Source: Escherichia coli
GTDB lineage: Bacteria > Pseudomonadota > Gammaproteobacteria > Enterobacterales > Enterobacteriaceae
NCBI RefSeq assembly: GCF_003334385.1
Contig: NZ_QOWN01000047.1
DNA length: 34,123 nt
Strand: one strand, 5' to 3'
In this document: positions 13,490 through 33,380 of the stretch, piece by piece
Numbering within the stretch: position 1 is the stretch's first letter
Layout: the number at the start of each line of letters is the position of its first letter
Made by a program: the position numbers and the translations under genes
The notes under the pieces: model-generated
What the model was told of the DNA's origin: nothing
The model's input: the letters and a program-made list of their open reading frames with translations, nothing else
Databases searched by the model: none

Positions 13490-14263
13490 TCAGACGTCGA
13501 CTTTATCCAGCGGCCATGAATCAAACAGATAGCCGTCAAAATAAATATCGTCAACGTTCGAGAATTCCAGCAGACGTTGCTTAACGTTTTCCAGATGCTG
13601 CCACATTGCCAGCTTCGCCGCTCGGGCATCTTTTTTGATTAACGCGGCGAGGATCTGTTTGTGATCGCCCAACCACTCTTTGCGATACAGGCTGTCATCC
13701 AGATGGCTGTGCAACTGGATCCACATTGGATTGTTTTCCCGCCACTGCCAGGACTGACGGAATAACTCCACCAGCATGCTGTTATGCGTTGCTTCGGCAA
13801 TGGCGAGATGGAACTGCATATCACCGCTTTCGCTGCTACCCGGCGCGCTGGAAGCCAGTTCACGCTCTTCCAGTTGCAATGCCTGACGCATTTTGACGAT
13901 ATCTTCGCGGGTAGCCTGCAAAGCGGCAAATTCCGCGATGTTACTTTCCAGTAACTGACGCGCCTGTAACAGCTCAAAAGGACCCGCATCATTACAGACG
14001 TTGGCATCCGAACTGTCTGTGTTGTGGCTGCCTGAGCTATCAAGAACATAGATACCGGCACCCCGGCGCACTTCCACCAGCCCTTTGATCTCCAGCATGA
14101 TCAGCGCTTCACGTACCACCGTCCGCGTGACATCAAGCATTTCTGCAATTTCACGCTCCGGCGGCAGCCGTTCGCCAGGATTGTACGGCGTCTTTATGAT
14201 CAGATCGCGGATCATCGCCCCGACTTCCTGGTAAGGTCTTTGCGCAGAGGTGGCAGATTTCAT
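13490..14263 (-). CDS. uxuR: GntR/FadR-family repressor UxuR
   Basis: 257-aa ORF with N-terminal GntR HTH; adjacent to uxuB-uxuA. Confidence 0.9.
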   Translation of the reverse strand: MKSATSAQRPYQEVGAMIRDLIIKTPYNPGERLPPEREIAEMLDVTRTVVREALIMLEIKGLVEVRRGAGIYVLDSSGSHNTDSSDANVCNDAGPFELLQARQLLESNIAEFAALQATREDIVKMRQALQLEERELASSAPGSSESGDMQFHLAIAEATHNSMLVELFRQSWQWRENNPMWIQLHSHLDDSLYRKEWLGDHKQILAALIKKDARAAKLAMWQHLENVKQRLLEFSNVDDIYFDGYLFDSWPLDKVDV

Positions 14264-14300: not shown

Positions 14301-14334
14301 GCCGGATGCGGCGTGAACGCCTTATCCGGCCTAC
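14301..14334. repeat. REP (repetitive extragenic palindromic) element
   Basis: GCCGGATGCGGCGTGAACGCCTTATCCGGCCTAC between uxuR and uxuB matches the enterobacterial REP consensus. Confidence 0.8.
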
Positions 14335-14477
14335 AACGGGCAATTTTACGGCCCCTGTTAATCTCAAACTATACCATTAGCACTGGAAGTTGGCACGTAC
14401 AGGTGGGCAAAAAAACGAAAACTGGTCAACCAAATATCAGTTTGATTGACCAGTAAGTCTGTAGGGTAATCAGTTAG

Positions 14478-15938
14478 TTACAGCGCAGCCACACACTCGC
14501 GCGCACCGCGTTCGCACAGCTGCTGATATGCCGCCGTCACCGCGCCAACAAAGTCGGCATTCTGCGGCAGATCATCGGCAAAAATACCGCTCAGGCCTAG
14601 CAGCGCTTTCACGCGGTCTGCGCCCTGATACTGCGCGTTAATCTTCTGGAACTCGGCCAGCATCGGGTCGACCACGTCAATGGCATTACCCTGCTCATCC
14701 ACGCCCTGGGTGTAACGCATCCAGCCAGCCACGCCCAGCGCCAGGTGACGCCAGCTGCCGCCGTTTTGCAGGTGCAGACGCACCGGGTCCAGCAGACGCT
14801 GCGGTAACTTCTGGCTGCCGTCCATCGCAATCTGCCAGGTACGGTGACGCAGAGACGGGTTGCTGAAACGCTCGATCAGCAGCGTCGCATAGGCGTTCAG
14901 GTCCGTACCTTCCGGCATCGACAGCGTTGGCGCTTGTTCCTGCATCATCAGGGCAAAGGCCGCTTTGCGATAATCCGGGTTAGTCATGGTGTCGGCAATA
15001 GTTTCATAGCCGCCGAGGTAACCGAGGTACGCCAGGAAAGAGTGGCTACCGTTCAGCATACGCAGCTTCATCATTTCGAACGGCACAACGTCTGCAACGA
15101 ACTGTGCGCCCACTTTATCCCAGTCCGGGCGACCATTAACGAAATTATCTTCAATCACCCACTGACGGAACGGTTCGCAGGCAATGGCGCACGGGTCGTA
15201 AACGCCCAGCTGGTCAGCAATTTCCTGTAAGGTTTCTGGCGTCGCCGCCGGAACGATGCGGTCAACCATGGTGCACGGGAAGGTGACGTTCTCTTCAATC
15301 CATGCCGCTAGCTGCGGGTCACGCGCCTGAGCCAGCCCCAGTACCGCGACCTTCGCCACATGACCGTTTTCACGCACGTTATCGCAGGACATCACCGTAA
15401 ATGCTTTCAGCCCTTTTTCACGACGCAGACGCAAGGCTTCGACGATGTAACCAATCGCGGACTTCGGCGCAGTCGGGTTTTCCAGATCGTGCTTGATCAG
15501 CGGGTTATTGAGATCCAGTTGACCGCTTGCCGCATCAGCGCAGTAGCCTTTTTCCGTGACCGTCAGAGAGACAATCGCCGTTTGCGGACGCGCCATCGCG
15601 TTGAGAATACCTTCGCAGCCGTCGATTTCCGGGTGCAGCGCTTCTTTCATCGAACCGATAATTTTCAGCTCGGTGCTTTCCGCGCCTTTTTCCGCCACGG
15701 TGTACAGCAGTTGCTGTTTTTTCAGGTTTTCGATCAGCACGCGGTCGTTGCCTGGCATCAGGTTAACTTCGCAGATACCCCAGTCGCTGTCGGTGCTTTC
15801 CAGCAGATGATGGGTGTACAGCGCCTGGTGCGCACGGTGAAACGCCCCGCAACCGAGATGCACAATGCGTGATTCCAGACGAGAATGATCCCATGACGGG
15901 CGGGCAACCGGCAGATTGCTGTCAACAATAGTAGTCAT
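14478..15938 (-). CDS. uxuB: D-mannonate oxidoreductase UxuB
   Basis: 486-aa ORF of the mannitol dehydrogenase family with a Rossmann N-terminus (IVHLGCGAFHRAHQ). Confidence 0.9.
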   Translation of the reverse strand: MTTIVDSNLPVARPSWDHSRLESRIVHLGCGAFHRAHQALYTHHLLESTDSDWGICEVNLMPGNDRVLIENLKKQQLLYTVAEKGAESTELKIIGSMKEALHPEIDGCEGILNAMARPQTAIVSLTVTEKGYCADAASGQLDLNNPLIKHDLENPTAPKSAIGYIVEALRLRREKGLKAFTVMSCDNVRENGHVAKVAVLGLAQARDPQLAAWIEENVTFPCTMVDRIVPAATPETLQEIADQLGVYDPCAIACEPFRQWVIEDNFVNGRPDWDKVGAQFVADVVPFEMMKLRMLNGSHSFLAYLGYLGGYETIADTMTNPDYRKAAFALMMQEQAPTLSMPEGTDLNAYATLLIERFSNPSLRHRTWQIAMDGSQKLPQRLLDPVRLHLQNGGSWRHLALGVAGWMRYTQGVDEQGNAIDVVDPMLAEFQKINAQYQGADRVKALLGLSGIFADDLPQNADFVGAVTAAYQQLCERGARECVAAL

Positions 15939-16018: not shown

Positions 16019-17203
16019 TTAACGGCTAAAGAAAGCGCGCTGGATCGCCAGTTCGACACCGCGAACTTCGGCCAGGCCTTTCAGACGACCAATTGCGGAG
16101 TAACCTGGGTTGGTTTTCTTCTTCAGGTCGTCCAGCATCTGATGACCGTGGTCCGGACGCATCGGGATCAGGTCTTCTTTGCCTTCCGCTTTACGACGGT
16201 GTTCTTCTTCAACAATCGCTTTCACCACTTCGTACATATCAACGTCACCGTTCAGGTGCGCCGCTTCGTGGAAGGTTTTCGGGTTATCTTCACGCATGGT
16301 GGAGCGCAGATGGGTGAAGTAAATACGCGGACCGAACTGCTTGATCATATCAACCAGATCGTTGTCAGCACGCACGCCGTAGGAACCGGTGCACATGGTG
16401 AAACCGTTCGCCATGCTATTTACGGTATCAACCATCCACTGCATATCTTCAATGGTAGAAACAATGCGCGGCAGGCCGAGGATTGGGCGCGGCGGATCGT
16501 CCGGGTGAACAGCCATACGCACGCCAACTTCTTCGGCAACCGGAATAATCGCCTTCAGGAAGACGGCAAAGTTTTCGCGCAGTTTGGCTTTGTCGATATC
16601 TTTGTACAGCTCCAGGTGCTTACGGAACTGGTCGAGGGTGTACCCTTCTTCCGCGCCCGGCAGACCGGCAATGATGTTACGGGTCAGACGCGCTTTGTCT
16701 TCGTCGCTCATAGTGGCGAAGCGTTCAGCTGCCTGAGCAATTTCTTCTTCGGTGTAATCCGCTTCCGCACCTGGGCGTTTCAGGATATGCATTTCGAATG
16801 CAGCGAATTCGATCTGGTCGAAGCGCAGAGCTTTGGAGCCGTCTGGCAGCACGTATTCGAGGTCAGTACGGGTCCAGTCGAGCACCGGCATGAAGTTGTA
16901 GCACACGGTGCGAATACCGCACTGCGCCAGGTTGCGCAGAGTCTGCTGATAGTTAGCGATCCACTGCTCATAGTTGCCAGTGTGGGTTTTGATATCTTCG
17001 TGAATTGGCACGCTTTCTACGACAGACCACACCAGGCCTGCATCTTCAACGATAGCCTTGCGTTTGAGGATCTCTTCTACGGACCATACTTCACCGTTCG
17101 GGATATGGTGCAAAGCGGTAACCACGCCAGTCGCGCCCGCCTGACGGACATCAGCTAAAGAAACCGGATCGTTTGGGCCGTACCAGCGCCAGGTCTGTTC
17201 CAT
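16019..17203 (-). CDS. uxuA: D-mannonate dehydratase UxuA
   Basis: ORF 16019-17239; start taken at the in-frame ATG ([14 protein letters not shown]...) giving 394 aa. Confidence 0.9.
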
Positions 17204-17365
17204 GATTTTTCCTCTTTCACATAGTGGGTTCCACAGCAAAGAGACGCGGAACCCTGGAGTTGTTTAGGTATCCGGATGAACAACCAGACCGCAGCCGTGG
17301 CGTTGCATCGGATGAGATGGCGTATAAGTTCTACCTTTTGGTAAGACATGTCAACCCGAATTCTG

Positions 17366-17383
17366 AAATTGGTTAACCACATC
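17366..17383. promoter_or_regulatory. Candidate UxuR/ExuR operator (palindrome AAATTGGTTAACCAC)
   Basis: Perfect 10-bp palindrome TGGTTAACCA flanked by AAAT, in the divergent uxuA-gntP region; resembles the TGGT-N-ACCA type operator. Confidence 0.55.
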
Positions 17384-17473
17384 ACAAGAATTTCACTCTC
17401 CTGGTTGTTGCTGCAAATTGCAGCAAAAGGTAATCGATGGTTATTGATCAGAGGATGTGACATTCATCGCAAC

Positions 17474-17488
17474 AATGGTTGACCAATT
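17474..17488. promoter_or_regulatory. Second candidate UxuR/ExuR operator (AATGGTTGACCAATT)
   Basis: Inverted half-sites TGGT/ACCA about 55 bp upstream of the gntP start codon. Confidence 0.45.
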
Positions 17489-17542
17489 TACATAACATGT
17501 CGCCCAAAATAACAACGGTTCAACCAGGTAAGGTAAAACGTT

Positions 17543-18886
17543 ATGCATGTGCTTAACATTCTCTGGGTGGTATTCGGCATTGGTCTGATGCTGGTACTGA
17601 ATTTGAAGTTCAAAATCAATTCAATGGTGGCCTTGTTGGTGGCGGCGCTGTCCGTCGGGATGCTGGCGGGCATGGATTTGATGTCGCTGCTGCACACCAT
17701 GAAAGCGGGCTTCGGCAACACACTGGGGGAACTGGCTATCATCGTGGTGTTCGGTGCGGTCATCGGTAAATTGATGGTCGACTCCGGCGCGGCTCACCAG
17801 ATAGCGCATACGCTGCTGGCACGTCTCGGTCTGCGTTATGTACAGCTGTCGGTGATTATCATCGGCCTGATTTTCGGTCTGGCGATGTTCTATGAAGTGG
17901 CCTTTATCATGTTAGCACCGCTGGTTATTGTTATTGCCGCCGAAGCTAAAATTCCGTTCCTGAAACTGGCGATCCCGGCAGTAGCAGCTGCCACTACCGC
18001 ACATTCACTGTTCCCACCGCAGCCGGGTCCGGTGGCGCTGGTGAATGCTTATGGCGCGGATATGGGGATGGTTTATATCTATGGCGTACTGGTGACGATC
18101 CCAAGTGTCATCTGCGCAGGTCTGATCCTGCCGAAGTTCCTCGGCAATCTTGAGCGCCCAACGCCATCATTCCTGAAAGCAGATCAACCGGTAGATATGA
18201 ATAATCTGCCCTCTTTCGGCGTTTCGATTCTGGTGCCGTTGATCCCGGCGATCATTATGATCTCTACCACCATCGCCAATATCTGGCTGGTAAAAGATAC
18301 CCCTGCGTGGGAAGTGGTTAACTTTATCGGTTCCTCGCCGATTGCAATGTTTATTGCGATGGTGGTTGCATTCGTACTCTTTGGCACCGCGCGCGGGCAC
18401 GATATGCAGTGGGTAATGAACGCTTTTGAAAGCGCGGTGAAAAGCATTGCAATGGTGATTCTGATCATCGGTGCAGGTGGCGTGCTGAAGCAGACCATCA
18501 TCGACACCGGCATCGGCGACACCATCGGCATGCTGATGTCCCACGGCAATATCTCGCCCTACATCATGGCATGGCTGATCACCGTACTGATTCGTCTGGC
18601 GACGGGTCAGGGTGTGGTTTCAGCGATGACCGCCGCCGGGATTATCAGTGCAGCAATCCTTGATCCAGCAACTGGTCAGCTGGTTGGCGTGAATCCGGCG
18701 CTGCTAGTACTGGCGACGGCTGCGGGTTCCAACACCCTCACCCACATTAACGATGCCTCATTCTGGTTGTTCAAAGGTTACTTTGACCTGTCAGTAAAAG
18801 ACACGTTGAAAACCTGGGGTCTGCTGGAGCTGGTCAACTCCGTGGTTGGGCTGATTATTGTGCTGATTATTAGCATGGTAGCGTAA
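17543..18886 (+). CDS. gntP: GntP-family permease (fructuronate/gluconate transporter)
   Basis: 447-aa polytopic ORF of the GntP permease family, divergent from uxuA. Confidence 0.9.
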
Positions 18887-25779: not shown

Positions 25780-26094
25780 TTGGGGCCAAAACTGTCCATA
25801 TCATAAATAAGTTACGTATTTTTTCTCAAGCATAAAAATATTATAAAACGACAAAAAGCATCTAACTGTTTGATATGTAAATCATTTCTCTTGTAAATTA
25901 ATTTCACATCACCTCCGCTAAATGTAAAGCTAACGTTTCTGTGTCTCGAAGCAACTTCCTCATTCTTCTCTCCAAAAACCACCTCATGCAATATAAAAAT
26001 CTATAAATAAAGATAACAATAGAATATAAAGCCAACAAATAAACTGAAAAAGTTTGTGCGCGATGCTTTCCTCTATGAGTCAAAATGGCCCCAA
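25780..26094. mobile_element. fimS: fimS invertible phase-variation switch (about 314 bp) bounded by 9-bp inverted repeats
   Basis: TTGGGGCCA at about 25780-25788 and its inverse TGGCCCCAA at about 26086-26094 flank an AT-rich segment between fimA and fimE, matching the known fim switch architecture. Confidence 0.85.
25799..25829 (-). promoter_or_regulatory. Candidate fimA sigma70 promoter inside fimS, reading toward fimA (switch ON)
   Basis: On the minus strand, TTGAGA (about 25829-25824), an 18-bp spacer and TATGAT (about 25805-25800) lie just inside the fimA-proximal inverted repeat and point at fimA. Confidence 0.6.
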
Positions 26095-33161: not shown

Positions 33162-33380
33162 ATGCCGCCATACAATGATTTTTTAGGATCAACAATGAGT
33201 AATAAAAACTACGAAAGTCACCGCAAAGCGATTGTTAGTAAAGGTATACCACCCGCTCTATTAAATAGGCTCACCAATTCGGATGTTCAGGTGATCAATA
33301 CCTTCTTAACACGAGTGAGCAAACTGGAACTATCTCAACAAGAGAAAGACTGGATCATAAAAATCATCTCTATGGTTTAG
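33162..33380 (+). CDS. Hypothetical small protein
   Basis: 72-aa ORF; an internal ATG preceded by AGGA would give 61 aa; different frame from the preceding ORF; no recognisable domain. Confidence 0.25.
   Translation: MPPYNDFLGSTMSNKNYESHRKAIVSKGIPPALLNRLTNSDVQVINTFLTRVSKLELSQQEKDWIIKIISMV

What the first reader, a model, noticed from the sequence alone, without database searches (positions are those of the whole stretch)
17204..17542. Two palindromic TGGT-ACCA operators in the divergent uxuA-gntP control region
A perfect TGGTTAACCA palindrome and a second TGGTTGACCA site sit between divergent uxuA and gntP, suggesting one repressor (UxuR and/or ExuR) controls both the hexuronate catabolic operon and the permease from shared operators.
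Basis: partly seen in the sequence, partly recalled or inferred. Interest (0 to 1): 0.35.

Follow-up and report, generated by a model that had tools for sequence, protein, structure and literature searches.

The report
Known UxuR/ExuR operators between uxuA and gntP
The two small palindromes are real and are the already-described binding sites of the E. coli hexuronate repressors UxuR/ExuR in the control region shared by the uxuAB operon and the fructuronate transporter gene gntP, so this is textbook regulation and not a discovery.

Summary
TGGTTAACCA lies at 17370-17379 and TGGTTGACCA at 17476-17485. Both are in the 339-bp spacer between uxuA (minus strand) and gntP (plus strand) of an E. coli chromosome.

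Each is the core of an 18-bp site resembling the published UxuR operator AAATTGGTATACCAATTT. A weight matrix built only from other hexuronate operons ranks site A first in the 34-kb window. A third site upstream of uxuR ranks second, and site B ranks fourth.

Both sites, and a CRP-like site abutting site B, are conserved between Escherichia and Citrobacter, while the DNA between them is not. Both 18-mers are identical in K-12. Published genomic SELEX places the single UxuR peak in the gntP/uxuA spacer, and gntP is cited as a UxuR-regulon member.

The geometry suggests one proximal operator per promoter rather than truly shared operators. Site B sits in the gntP core promoter. Site A sits just upstream of the uxuA -35-like hexamer and overlaps a CRP-like site. 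The two centres are 104-106 bp apart, which may allow cooperation.

Novelty: already known. Interest: low.

The parts
17366..17383 (.). Site A, the uxuA-proximal UxuR/ExuR operator: AAATTGGTTAACCACATC (core TGGTTAACCA 17370-17379)
   Evidence: Ranks first of all 18-mers in the window with a matrix built from 7 non-uxu sites: 18.5 bits, above the maximum of 200 shuffles. About 1e-4 such hits are expected per 339 bp. Cross-genus identity is 93%. The 18-mer is identical in K-12.
17472..17489 (.). Site B, the gntP-proximal UxuR/ExuR operator: ACAATGGTTGACCAATTT (core TGGTTGACCA 17476-17485)
   Evidence: Scores 12.9 bits and ranks fourth in the window. About 0.01 such hits are expected per 339 bp. 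The core is conserved in E. albertii and four Citrobacter loci, with 83% cross-genus identity. The 18-mer is identical in K-12.
14419..14436 (.). Site C, an operator upstream of uxuR (probable autoregulation): AAACTGGTCAACCAAATA
   Evidence: It is the third TGGTNNACCA in the window. It scores 15.3 bits and ranks second. It lies between the uxuB stop and the uxuR start. The literature reports that UxuR represses its own gene.
17456..17471 (.). CRP-like site TGTGAcattcaTCGCA abutting site B
   Evidence: Matches 9 of 10 positions of the CRP core and is one of only 2 such positions in the 34-kb window. The half-sites are conserved and the N6 is variable across Escherichia and Citrobacter, with 90% cross-genus identity. 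Its function is inferred.
17371..17386 (.). Weaker CRP-like site GGTTAACCACATCACA, overlapping site A
   Evidence: Matches 8 of 10 positions of the CRP core, as do only 12 positions in the window. The TGTGA half is mostly conserved across genera. Its function is inferred.
17349..17354 (-). TTGACA, a -35-like hexamer for uxuA, 11 bp downstream of site A on the uxuA strand
   Evidence: Read directly from the sequence. It lies in a block conserved between Escherichia and Citrobacter. No matching -10 passed the consensus scan, so the assignment is tentative.
17493..17498 (+). TAACAT, a -10-like hexamer for gntP
   Evidence: Read directly from the sequence. With the CRP-like centre at 17463.5, it fits a class II layout with a start near 17505. 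This is inferred. The consensus scan found no canonical sigma-70 promoter.
16019..17203 (-). uxuA (mannonate dehydratase)
   Evidence: TIGR00695 scores 793 bits against a cut-off of 199.55. RefSeq annotation agrees.
14478..15938 (-). uxuB (fructuronate reductase)
   Evidence: NF011611 scores 1130 bits against a cut-off of 603. RefSeq annotation agrees.
13490..14263 (-). uxuR (GntR/FadR-family repressor)
   Evidence: NF007588 scores 582 bits against a cut-off of 442. The ExuR model scores 253 bits, below its cut-off of 396.
17543..18886 (+). gntP (fructuronate transporter; RefSeq annotates this strain's copy as gluconate permease GntP)
   Evidence: NF007459 scores 909 bits against a cut-off of 647. 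The K-12 record names the product 'fructuronate transporter'.

Best explanation
The two palindromes are the operators of the paralogous GntR/FadR-family repressors UxuR and ExuR in the divergent gntP/uxuAB control region of E. coli. A repressor dimer binds each 18-bp site through the TGGT-N2-ACCA core and its AT-rich flanks. Site B lies between a CRP-like site and the -10-like hexamer of gntP, at about -33 to -16 of the inferred start. A bound repressor there would block RNA polymerase. Site A lies immediately upstream of the uxuA -35-like hexamer and overlaps a weaker CRP-like site. A bound repressor there would most likely block CRP-dependent activation or upstream polymerase contacts, possibly helped by contact with site B 106 bp away. 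A third site upstream of uxuR provides autoregulation. Fructuronate or glucuronate releases the repressor, so the transporter, the two catabolic enzymes and the repressor are induced together. What is shown here: the sites exist, match the motif, are conserved, and have the stated positions relative to the genes. What comes from the literature: UxuR binding in this spacer, the regulon membership of uxuAB and gntP, and effector release. What is inferred: the transcription starts, the CRP roles, and the mechanism at site A.
For: The sites are present and exceed chance. Their flanks extend the match to the published, functionally tested UxuR operator AAATTGGTATACCAATTT: site B matches 14 of 18 positions and sites A and C match 13 of 18, as counted on the identical K-12 18-mers. 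An independent matrix built from uxaC/exuT, exuR, uxaB, uidA and uidR sites ranks A first, C second and B fourth among about 34,000 positions. About 1e-4 (A) and 0.01 (B) such hits are expected per 339 bp. Cross-genus identity is 93% for site A, 83% for site B and 90% for the CRP-like site, against 30% for the DNA between them and 16% for the uxuA leader. Motif matches of at least 11 bits lie upstream of uxuA in 49 of 80 loci from other gammaproteobacteria, whatever the neighbouring gene. The cores are invariant in divergent Escherichia strains. The spacer is at least 99% identical in 4531 of 5405 E. coli genomes. uxuR is encoded two genes away. In the literature, genomic SELEX finds the single UxuR peak in the gntP/uxuA spacer, with binding weakened by glucuronate (PMC5934670). 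Deleting uxuR strongly raises UxuA and derepresses a uxuAB promoter fusion (PMC9369180). uxuAB and gntP are activated on glucuronate or on uxuR deletion (PMC10016265).
Against: Taken alone, site B scores no higher than the best hit expected somewhere in a random 34-kb sequence (12.9 bits against a shuffle maximum of 12.9 +/- 1.6). Its assignment therefore rests on location and conservation. No canonical sigma-70 promoter was found by the consensus scan, so all positions relative to transcription starts are inferred. The primary papers that mapped the operators and promoters (Blanco 1986, Rodionov 2000, Bates Utz 2004, Suvorova 2011, Tutukina 2016) are not in the held library. Site-by-site experimental assignment, and ExuR binding at each site, therefore could not be verified here. 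The training sites for the matrix were picked by similarity to the published consensus, so the matrix is independent of the uxu region but not of the consensus.
Confidence: 0.93

Rival explanations
1. The two operators work as a pair. Repressor bound at A and B (a dimer of dimers, or UxuR-ExuR hetero-oligomers) loops the roughly 105 bp between them, so each site contributes to repression of both promoters. This is the literal meaning of 'shared operators'.
For: The centre-to-centre distance is 106 bp in E. coli and E. albertii and 104-105 bp in four Citrobacter loci, about 10 helical turns. The intervening sequence is only 30% identical across the two genera. The better half-sites face outwards as a 14-nt inverted repeat. 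Pairs 102-110 bp apart recur upstream of uxuA in Cedecea, Enterobacter sp. Ag1, Erwinia psidii and the second Citrobacter copy.
Against: Only two genera carry this exact arrangement, so the conserved length may simply reflect few indels. Other taxa have pairs 63, 142, 186 and 201-234 bp apart. UxuR is modelled as a dimer, and no higher oligomer is documented in the papers read. No binding or phasing data were available.
Confidence: 0.25
2. The sites belong to another FadR-subfamily regulator with a TGGT...ACCA type operator, such as PdhR, LldR or FadR, and not to UxuR/ExuR.
For: FadR-subfamily proteins share half-sites of this kind (from my own knowledge of the family). UxuR gives weak hits to the LldR, PdhR and NanR models.
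Against: From my own knowledge, PdhR-type sites have 3 bp between the half-sites. Here the spacing is 2 bp at all three sites, the same as the published UxuR operator and the sites upstream of the other hexuronate genes. The sites lie next to uxuR and its target genes. SELEX with UxuR gives its single peak in this spacer.
Confidence: 0.02
3. The palindromes are chance occurrences in an AT-rich spacer and have no function.
For: Each core is only 10 bp. Site B alone is not significant against the whole window.
Against: There are three copies against 0.44 expected, all in promoter regions of the uxu cluster. They are conserved across genera while the flanks diverge. They match an independent matrix. 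Published UxuR binding falls in this spacer.
Confidence: 0.01

Closest known systems
UxuR/ExuR operators of the gntP/uxuAB control region in E. coli K-12
   Same: All three 18-mers are identical to K-12. In locus L003 of NC_000913.3 they start at 2351, 2457 and 5404, which corresponds to about 4551350-4551367, 4551456-4551473 and 4554403-4554420. The flanking genes and their order are the same. This is the same element in another strain.
   Different: Nothing of substance differs. Against K-12 the spacer has three single-base differences, all outside the sites.
The divergent uxaCA/exuT control region of the ExuR regulon
   Same: It also pairs a sugar-acid transporter gene with a divergent catabolic operon, with two motif matches in the spacer (L002 3796 and 3976). 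It uses the same repressor family and the same motif.
   Different: The K-12 sites there are more degenerate (5 mismatches each to the consensus, with imperfect cores) and 180 bp apart. From the older genetics cited, ExuR is the principal repressor there.
Enterobacter sp. R1(2018): an ExuT-like MFS transporter gene divergent from uxuAB (locus L014)
   Same: There are two good motif matches in the spacer between a sugar-acid transporter gene and uxuA.
   Different: The transporter belongs to a different family (MFS, D-galactonate transporter subfamily, not GntP), and the sites are 186 bp apart.
PdhR-type FadR-subfamily operators
   Same: They are palindromes with TGGT / ACCA half-sites, recognised by a winged-helix GntR domain (from my own knowledge).
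   Different: The half-site spacing there is 3 bp, against 2 bp here, and the regulon is unrelated.

Membership tests
UxuR/ExuR operator (GntR/FadR subfamily, hexuronate regulon) | An 18-bp palindrome resembling AAATTGGTATACCAATTT with an intact TGGT-N2-ACCA core | tested here: met
   The TGGT and ACCA cores are perfect at A, B and C. Site B matches 14 of 18 consensus positions, and sites A and C match 13 of 18. The consensus is taken from PMC8092373.
UxuR/ExuR operator (GntR/FadR subfamily, hexuronate regulon) | A high score with a weight matrix derived from other regulon members | tested here: met
   The matrix was built from 7 K-12 sites outside the uxu cluster. Site A scores 18.5 bits (rank 1), C 15.3 (rank 2) and B 12.9 (rank 4). 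Site B is borderline when taken alone.
UxuR/ExuR operator (GntR/FadR subfamily, hexuronate regulon) | Location in the promoter region of hexuronate or fructuronate utilisation genes | tested here: met
   Sites A and B are in the uxuA/gntP spacer, and site C is upstream of uxuR.
UxuR/ExuR operator (GntR/FadR subfamily, hexuronate regulon) | Conservation in orthologous regions of other species | tested here: met
   Both cores are conserved in E. albertii and four Citrobacter loci, while the surrounding DNA diverges. Motif matches lie upstream of uxuA in 49 of 80 loci.
UxuR/ExuR operator (GntR/FadR subfamily, hexuronate regulon) | The cognate repressor gene is present in the genome | tested here: met
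   uxuR is at 13490-14263 and scores above the equivalog cut-off. exuR is not in the window but is present in E. coli K-12.
UxuR/ExuR operator (GntR/FadR subfamily, hexuronate regulon) | Direct binding by UxuR, released by fructuronate or glucuronate | not testable with these tools
   The literature reports a single genomic SELEX peak of UxuR in the gntP/uxuA spacer, reduced by glucuronate. A consensus operator confers UxuR- and inducer-dependent control on a synthetic promoter.
UxuR/ExuR operator (GntR/FadR subfamily, hexuronate regulon) | Binding by ExuR at these particular sites | not testable with these tools
   Cross-regulation of uxuAB by ExuR is stated in reviews of the older genetics. 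No site-level data could be read.
PdhR-type FadR-subfamily operator | Half-sites separated by 3 bp | tested here: not met
   All three sites have 2 bp between TGGT and ACCA. The 3-bp rule is from my own knowledge.
Class II CRP-dependent promoter (gntP) | A CRP site centred near -41.5 with a weak or absent -35 hexamer | tested here: inconclusive
   A CRP core matching 9 of 10 positions is centred at 17463.5 and is conserved. The -10-like TAACAT at 17493-17498 would place the start near 17505. No transcription start data were available, and the consensus scan found no promoter.

The most novel reading that the evidence does not exclude
The two operators are kept about 10 helical turns apart (104-106 bp) in Escherichia and Citrobacter although the DNA between them has diverged to near-random identity. 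This would fit a repression loop formed by UxuR and/or ExuR that silences both divergent promoters together. In that reading, site A acts as an anti-activator site overlapping a class I CRP site, and not by blocking polymerase directly. I found no statement of such a loop in the papers I could read.
Probability: 0.2. Interest if true: 0.3.

Novelty: already known. Interest (0 to 1): 0.07.

Why it matters
It matters little as a discovery. The element is a well-studied piece of E. coli sugar-acid regulation, identical in sequence to K-12. It does show that the first-stage reader can recognise real operators from raw sequence. The only open points are mechanistic details: whether the two sites cooperate by looping, how site A represses from upstream of the -35-like hexamer, and what the Escherichia-specific palindrome between the sites does. 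These would interest specialists in hexuronate regulation or builders of fructuronate biosensors.

Tried and rejected
- **Promoter and terminator scan (17100-17650):** it found no consensus promoter or terminator. Promoter positions were therefore inferred by eye from the CRP-like sites, the hexamers and conservation.
- **Rfam scan of the whole window:** no family reached its threshold, so there is no known RNA element in the uxuA or gntP leaders.
- **Primary papers:** Bates Utz 2004 (PMC524916), Suvorova 2011 (PMC3147527), Robert-Baudouy 1981 (PMC217263) and Bouvier 2019 (PMC6304669) are not held. One search timed out. A full-text search for the site sequence together with 'UxuR' found nothing.
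- **Genome scan:** the genome-contig scan failed twice for lack of capacity before it succeeded.
- **Matrix hit at 33263-33280 (14.1 bits):** it was considered as a fourth operator and rejected. Its core is imperfect (AGGC..ACCA), it lies in a degenerate island after nanS, and its score is within the chance range.
- **Palindrome TTGCTGCAA-A-TTGCAGCAA (17408-17426):** it was considered as part of the control system. It is absent from Citrobacter and imperfect in E. albertii, so it is not part of the conserved core and remains unexplained.
- **PdhR-type assignment:** rejected because the half-site spacing differs.

Full report
**What the window is.** The 539 bp around the finding are 100% identical to several E. 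coli chromosomes, including the type strain ATCC 11775, and match 5405 of 5426 complete E. coli genomes. RefSeq annotation of the matching region gives the gene order yjiC, uxuR, uxuB, uxuA, then gntP on the opposite strand, then fimH through fimB and nanC. NCBIfam equivalog models confirm four of these genes:
- UxuR at 13490-14263, minus strand: 582 bits against a cut-off of 442.
- UxuB at 14478-15938, minus strand.
- UxuA at 16019-17203, minus strand.
- GntP at 17543-18886, plus strand.

The range given in the finding, 17204-17542, is exactly the divergent uxuA/gntP spacer.

**The observation.** TGGTTAACCA is at 17370-17379 and TGGTTGACCA is at 17476-17485. The pattern TGGTNNACCA occurs three times in the window against 0.44 expected, and only 1 of 100 shuffles reached three. 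The third copy, TGGTCAACCA at 14423-14432, lies between the uxuB stop and the uxuR start. The similarity extends beyond the cores:
- Site A, 17366-17383: AAATTGGTTAACCACATC.
- Site B, 17472-17489: ACAATGGTTGACCAATTT.
- Site C, 14419-14436: AAACTGGTCAACCAAATA.

Sites A and B together form a 14-nt inverted repeat that is 93% complementary, with the better half-sites facing outwards.

A published UxuR operator, AAATTGGTATACCAATTT, placed between the -35 and -10 of a synthetic promoter gives UxuR-dependent repression that is relieved through fructuronate (PMC8092373). I fetched the K-12 regions of the other hexuronate genes. In their spacers I found seven matches: two for uxaC/exuT, one for exuR, two for uxaB, one for uidA and one for uidR. 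A symmetrised weight matrix built only from these seven reproduces the consensus.

Scanning the whole window gives site A at rank 1 (18.5 bits, above the best of 200 shuffles). Site C is at rank 2 (15.3 bits) and site B at rank 4 (12.9 bits). With first-order Markov nulls, the expected number of hits per 339 bp is 1e-4 at the score of A and 0.01 at the score of B. Site B alone would not stand out in 34 kb. Its location and conservation carry the argument. The rank 3 hit at 33263 has an imperfect core, lies in a degenerate island and is within the chance range. All three 18-mers are identical in K-12.

**Conservation across species.** A scan of one genome per species with UxuA returned 80 loci. 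The arrangement of gntP divergent from uxuAB-uxuR is found in Escherichia and in four Citrobacter loci. In an alignment of the spacers, cross-genus identity by block is as follows:

| Block | Cross-genus identity |
|---|---|
| Site A | 93% |
| CRP-like site beside site B | 90% |
| Site B | 83% |
| uxuA promoter-like block | 70% |
| gntP leader | 69% |
| 69 bp between the operators | 30% |
| uxuA leader | 16% |

The uxuA leader carries a segment of about 79 nt that Citrobacter lacks. The centre-to-centre distance between the cores is 106 bp in Escherichia and 104-105 bp in Citrobacter.

Across all 80 loci, 49 have at least one matrix hit of 11 bits or more within 450 bp upstream of uxuA, whatever the neighbouring gene is. 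Loci without a hit are mainly those where uxuA directly follows uxuR. In Enterobacter sp. R1 the divergent neighbour is an ExuT-like MFS transporter gene, and again there are two sites.

Within E. coli the spacer is at least 99% identical in 4531 of 5405 genomes. In the most divergent strains retrieved, the differences fall outside the cores.

**Literature.**
- Genomic SELEX with purified UxuR gives a single specific peak in the spacer between gntP and uxuA. Binding falls as glucuronate is added, and the target is listed as gntP/uxuABR (PMC5934670, PMC8249747).
- Reviews of the field state that UxuR and ExuR, which are paralogues, together control uxuAB, gntP, exuT, uxaC and uidABC and repress their own genes (PMC9369180, PMC10016265).
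- Deleting uxuR strongly raises UxuA and derepresses a uxuAB promoter fusion.
- uxuAB and gntP are activated on glucuronate or on uxuR deletion.
- Bates Utz et al. [quoted passage not shown] From my memory of its abstract, UxuR binds an operator overlapping the gntP promoter, fructuronate abolishes binding, and gntP needs cAMP-CRP.

The element is therefore already known.

**Likely mechanism.** The positions below are inferred, because the consensus scan found no canonical promoter.

For gntP:
- A CRP core matching 9 of 10 positions, TGTGAcattcaTCGCA (17456-17471), is one of only two such positions in the window.
- With the -10-like TAACAT at 17493-17498, this fits a class II layout starting near 17505.
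- That places site B at about -33 to -16, where a bound repressor would exclude polymerase.

For uxuA:
- A perfect TTGACA (17354-17349, minus strand) lies 11 bp downstream of site A, in a conserved block.
- Site A overlaps a CRP core matching 8 of 10 positions (17371-17386, centre 17378.5).
- That centre would sit near -60 if the start is around 17317-17319.
- Site A would then act mainly by blocking CRP or upstream polymerase contacts, and not by covering the core promoter.

Each promoter thus seems to have its own proximal operator. The conserved spacing of about 105 bp allows cooperation by looping but does not prove it. Other taxa show pair spacings of 63 to 234 bp. Site C fits the reported autoregulation of uxuR.

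**Rivals.**
- Another FadR-subfamily regulator is unlikely, because the half-site spacing is 2 bp at all three sites, as in the UxuR operator.
- Chance is excluded by the counts, the matrix scores and the conservation.
- The looped or shared reading remains possible. I give it about 0.2-0.25.

**Verdict.** The refinement is that the operators look dedicated to one promoter each and are not literally shared. The element is already known, so interest is low.

Noticed in passing
window 14419-14454: A third TGGT-N2-ACCA site (AAACTGGTCAACCAAATA) lies upstream of uxuR and ranks second with the matrix. It is probably the uxuR autoregulatory operator. Its left part, ACTGGTCAA (14421-14429), also pairs with TTGACCAGT (14446-14454) as a 9-nt inverted repeat.
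   Followed up: partly
window 14301-14334: A REP-like palindromic element (GCCGGATGCGGCGTGAACGCCTTATCCGGCCTAC) lies between the uxuR-upstream operator and the uxuR start codon, presumably inside the uxuR leader.
   Followed up: no
window 17408-17426: A perfect palindrome, TTGCTGCAA-A-TTGCAGCAA, sits midway between the two operators. As single-stranded DNA it folds at -8.3 kcal/mol (z -3.5). It is present in E. coli, has one arm mismatch in E. albertii and is absent from Citrobacter. No regulator could be assigned.
   Followed up: partly
window 17226-17304: A segment of about 79 nt in the uxuA leader is present in Escherichia and missing in Citrobacter. The 126-nt leader folds into two hairpins (-39.2 kcal/mol, z -2.4), one of them just upstream of the ribosome-binding site. 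There is no Rfam match.
   Followed up: partly
L007 1-3000; L087 (E. coli strains SCPM-O-B-8794 and EC23HZZ201): Some E. coli strains keep both operators and the gntP promoter region, but their sequence diverges just before the gntP start codon and no gntP follows. In L007 the ORFs upstream of uxuA have sizes like those of nanM and nanS, which would suggest loss of the gntP-fim-nanC segment. These ORFs were not identified.
   Followed up: partly
window 17204-17542 compared with 17104-17642: Across E. coli genomes the spacer alone is at least 99% identical in 4531 of 5405 genomes. The same spacer plus 100 bp of coding sequence on each side reaches 99% in only 613. The non-coding control region therefore varies less than the adjacent gene ends.
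   Followed up: no
window 25780-26094: The fim invertible switch (fimS) lies between fimE and fimA and is recognisable by its 9-bp inverted repeats TTGGGGCCA at 25780-25788 and 26086-26094. Its orientation (ON or OFF) was not determined.
   Followed up: no
window 33263-33280: AAATAGGCTCACCAATTC scores 14.1 bits with the UxuR/ExuR matrix (rank 3). It has an imperfect core and lies in a degenerate island downstream of nanS. I judged it a chance match.
   Followed up: partly
window 17518-17527: GGTTCAACCA in the gntP leader, just upstream of the ribosome-binding site, is conserved between Escherichia and Citrobacter. In Citrobacter it reads TGGTTGAACCA on the other strand, a TGGT-N3-ACCA arrangement. 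Its significance is unknown.
   Followed up: no
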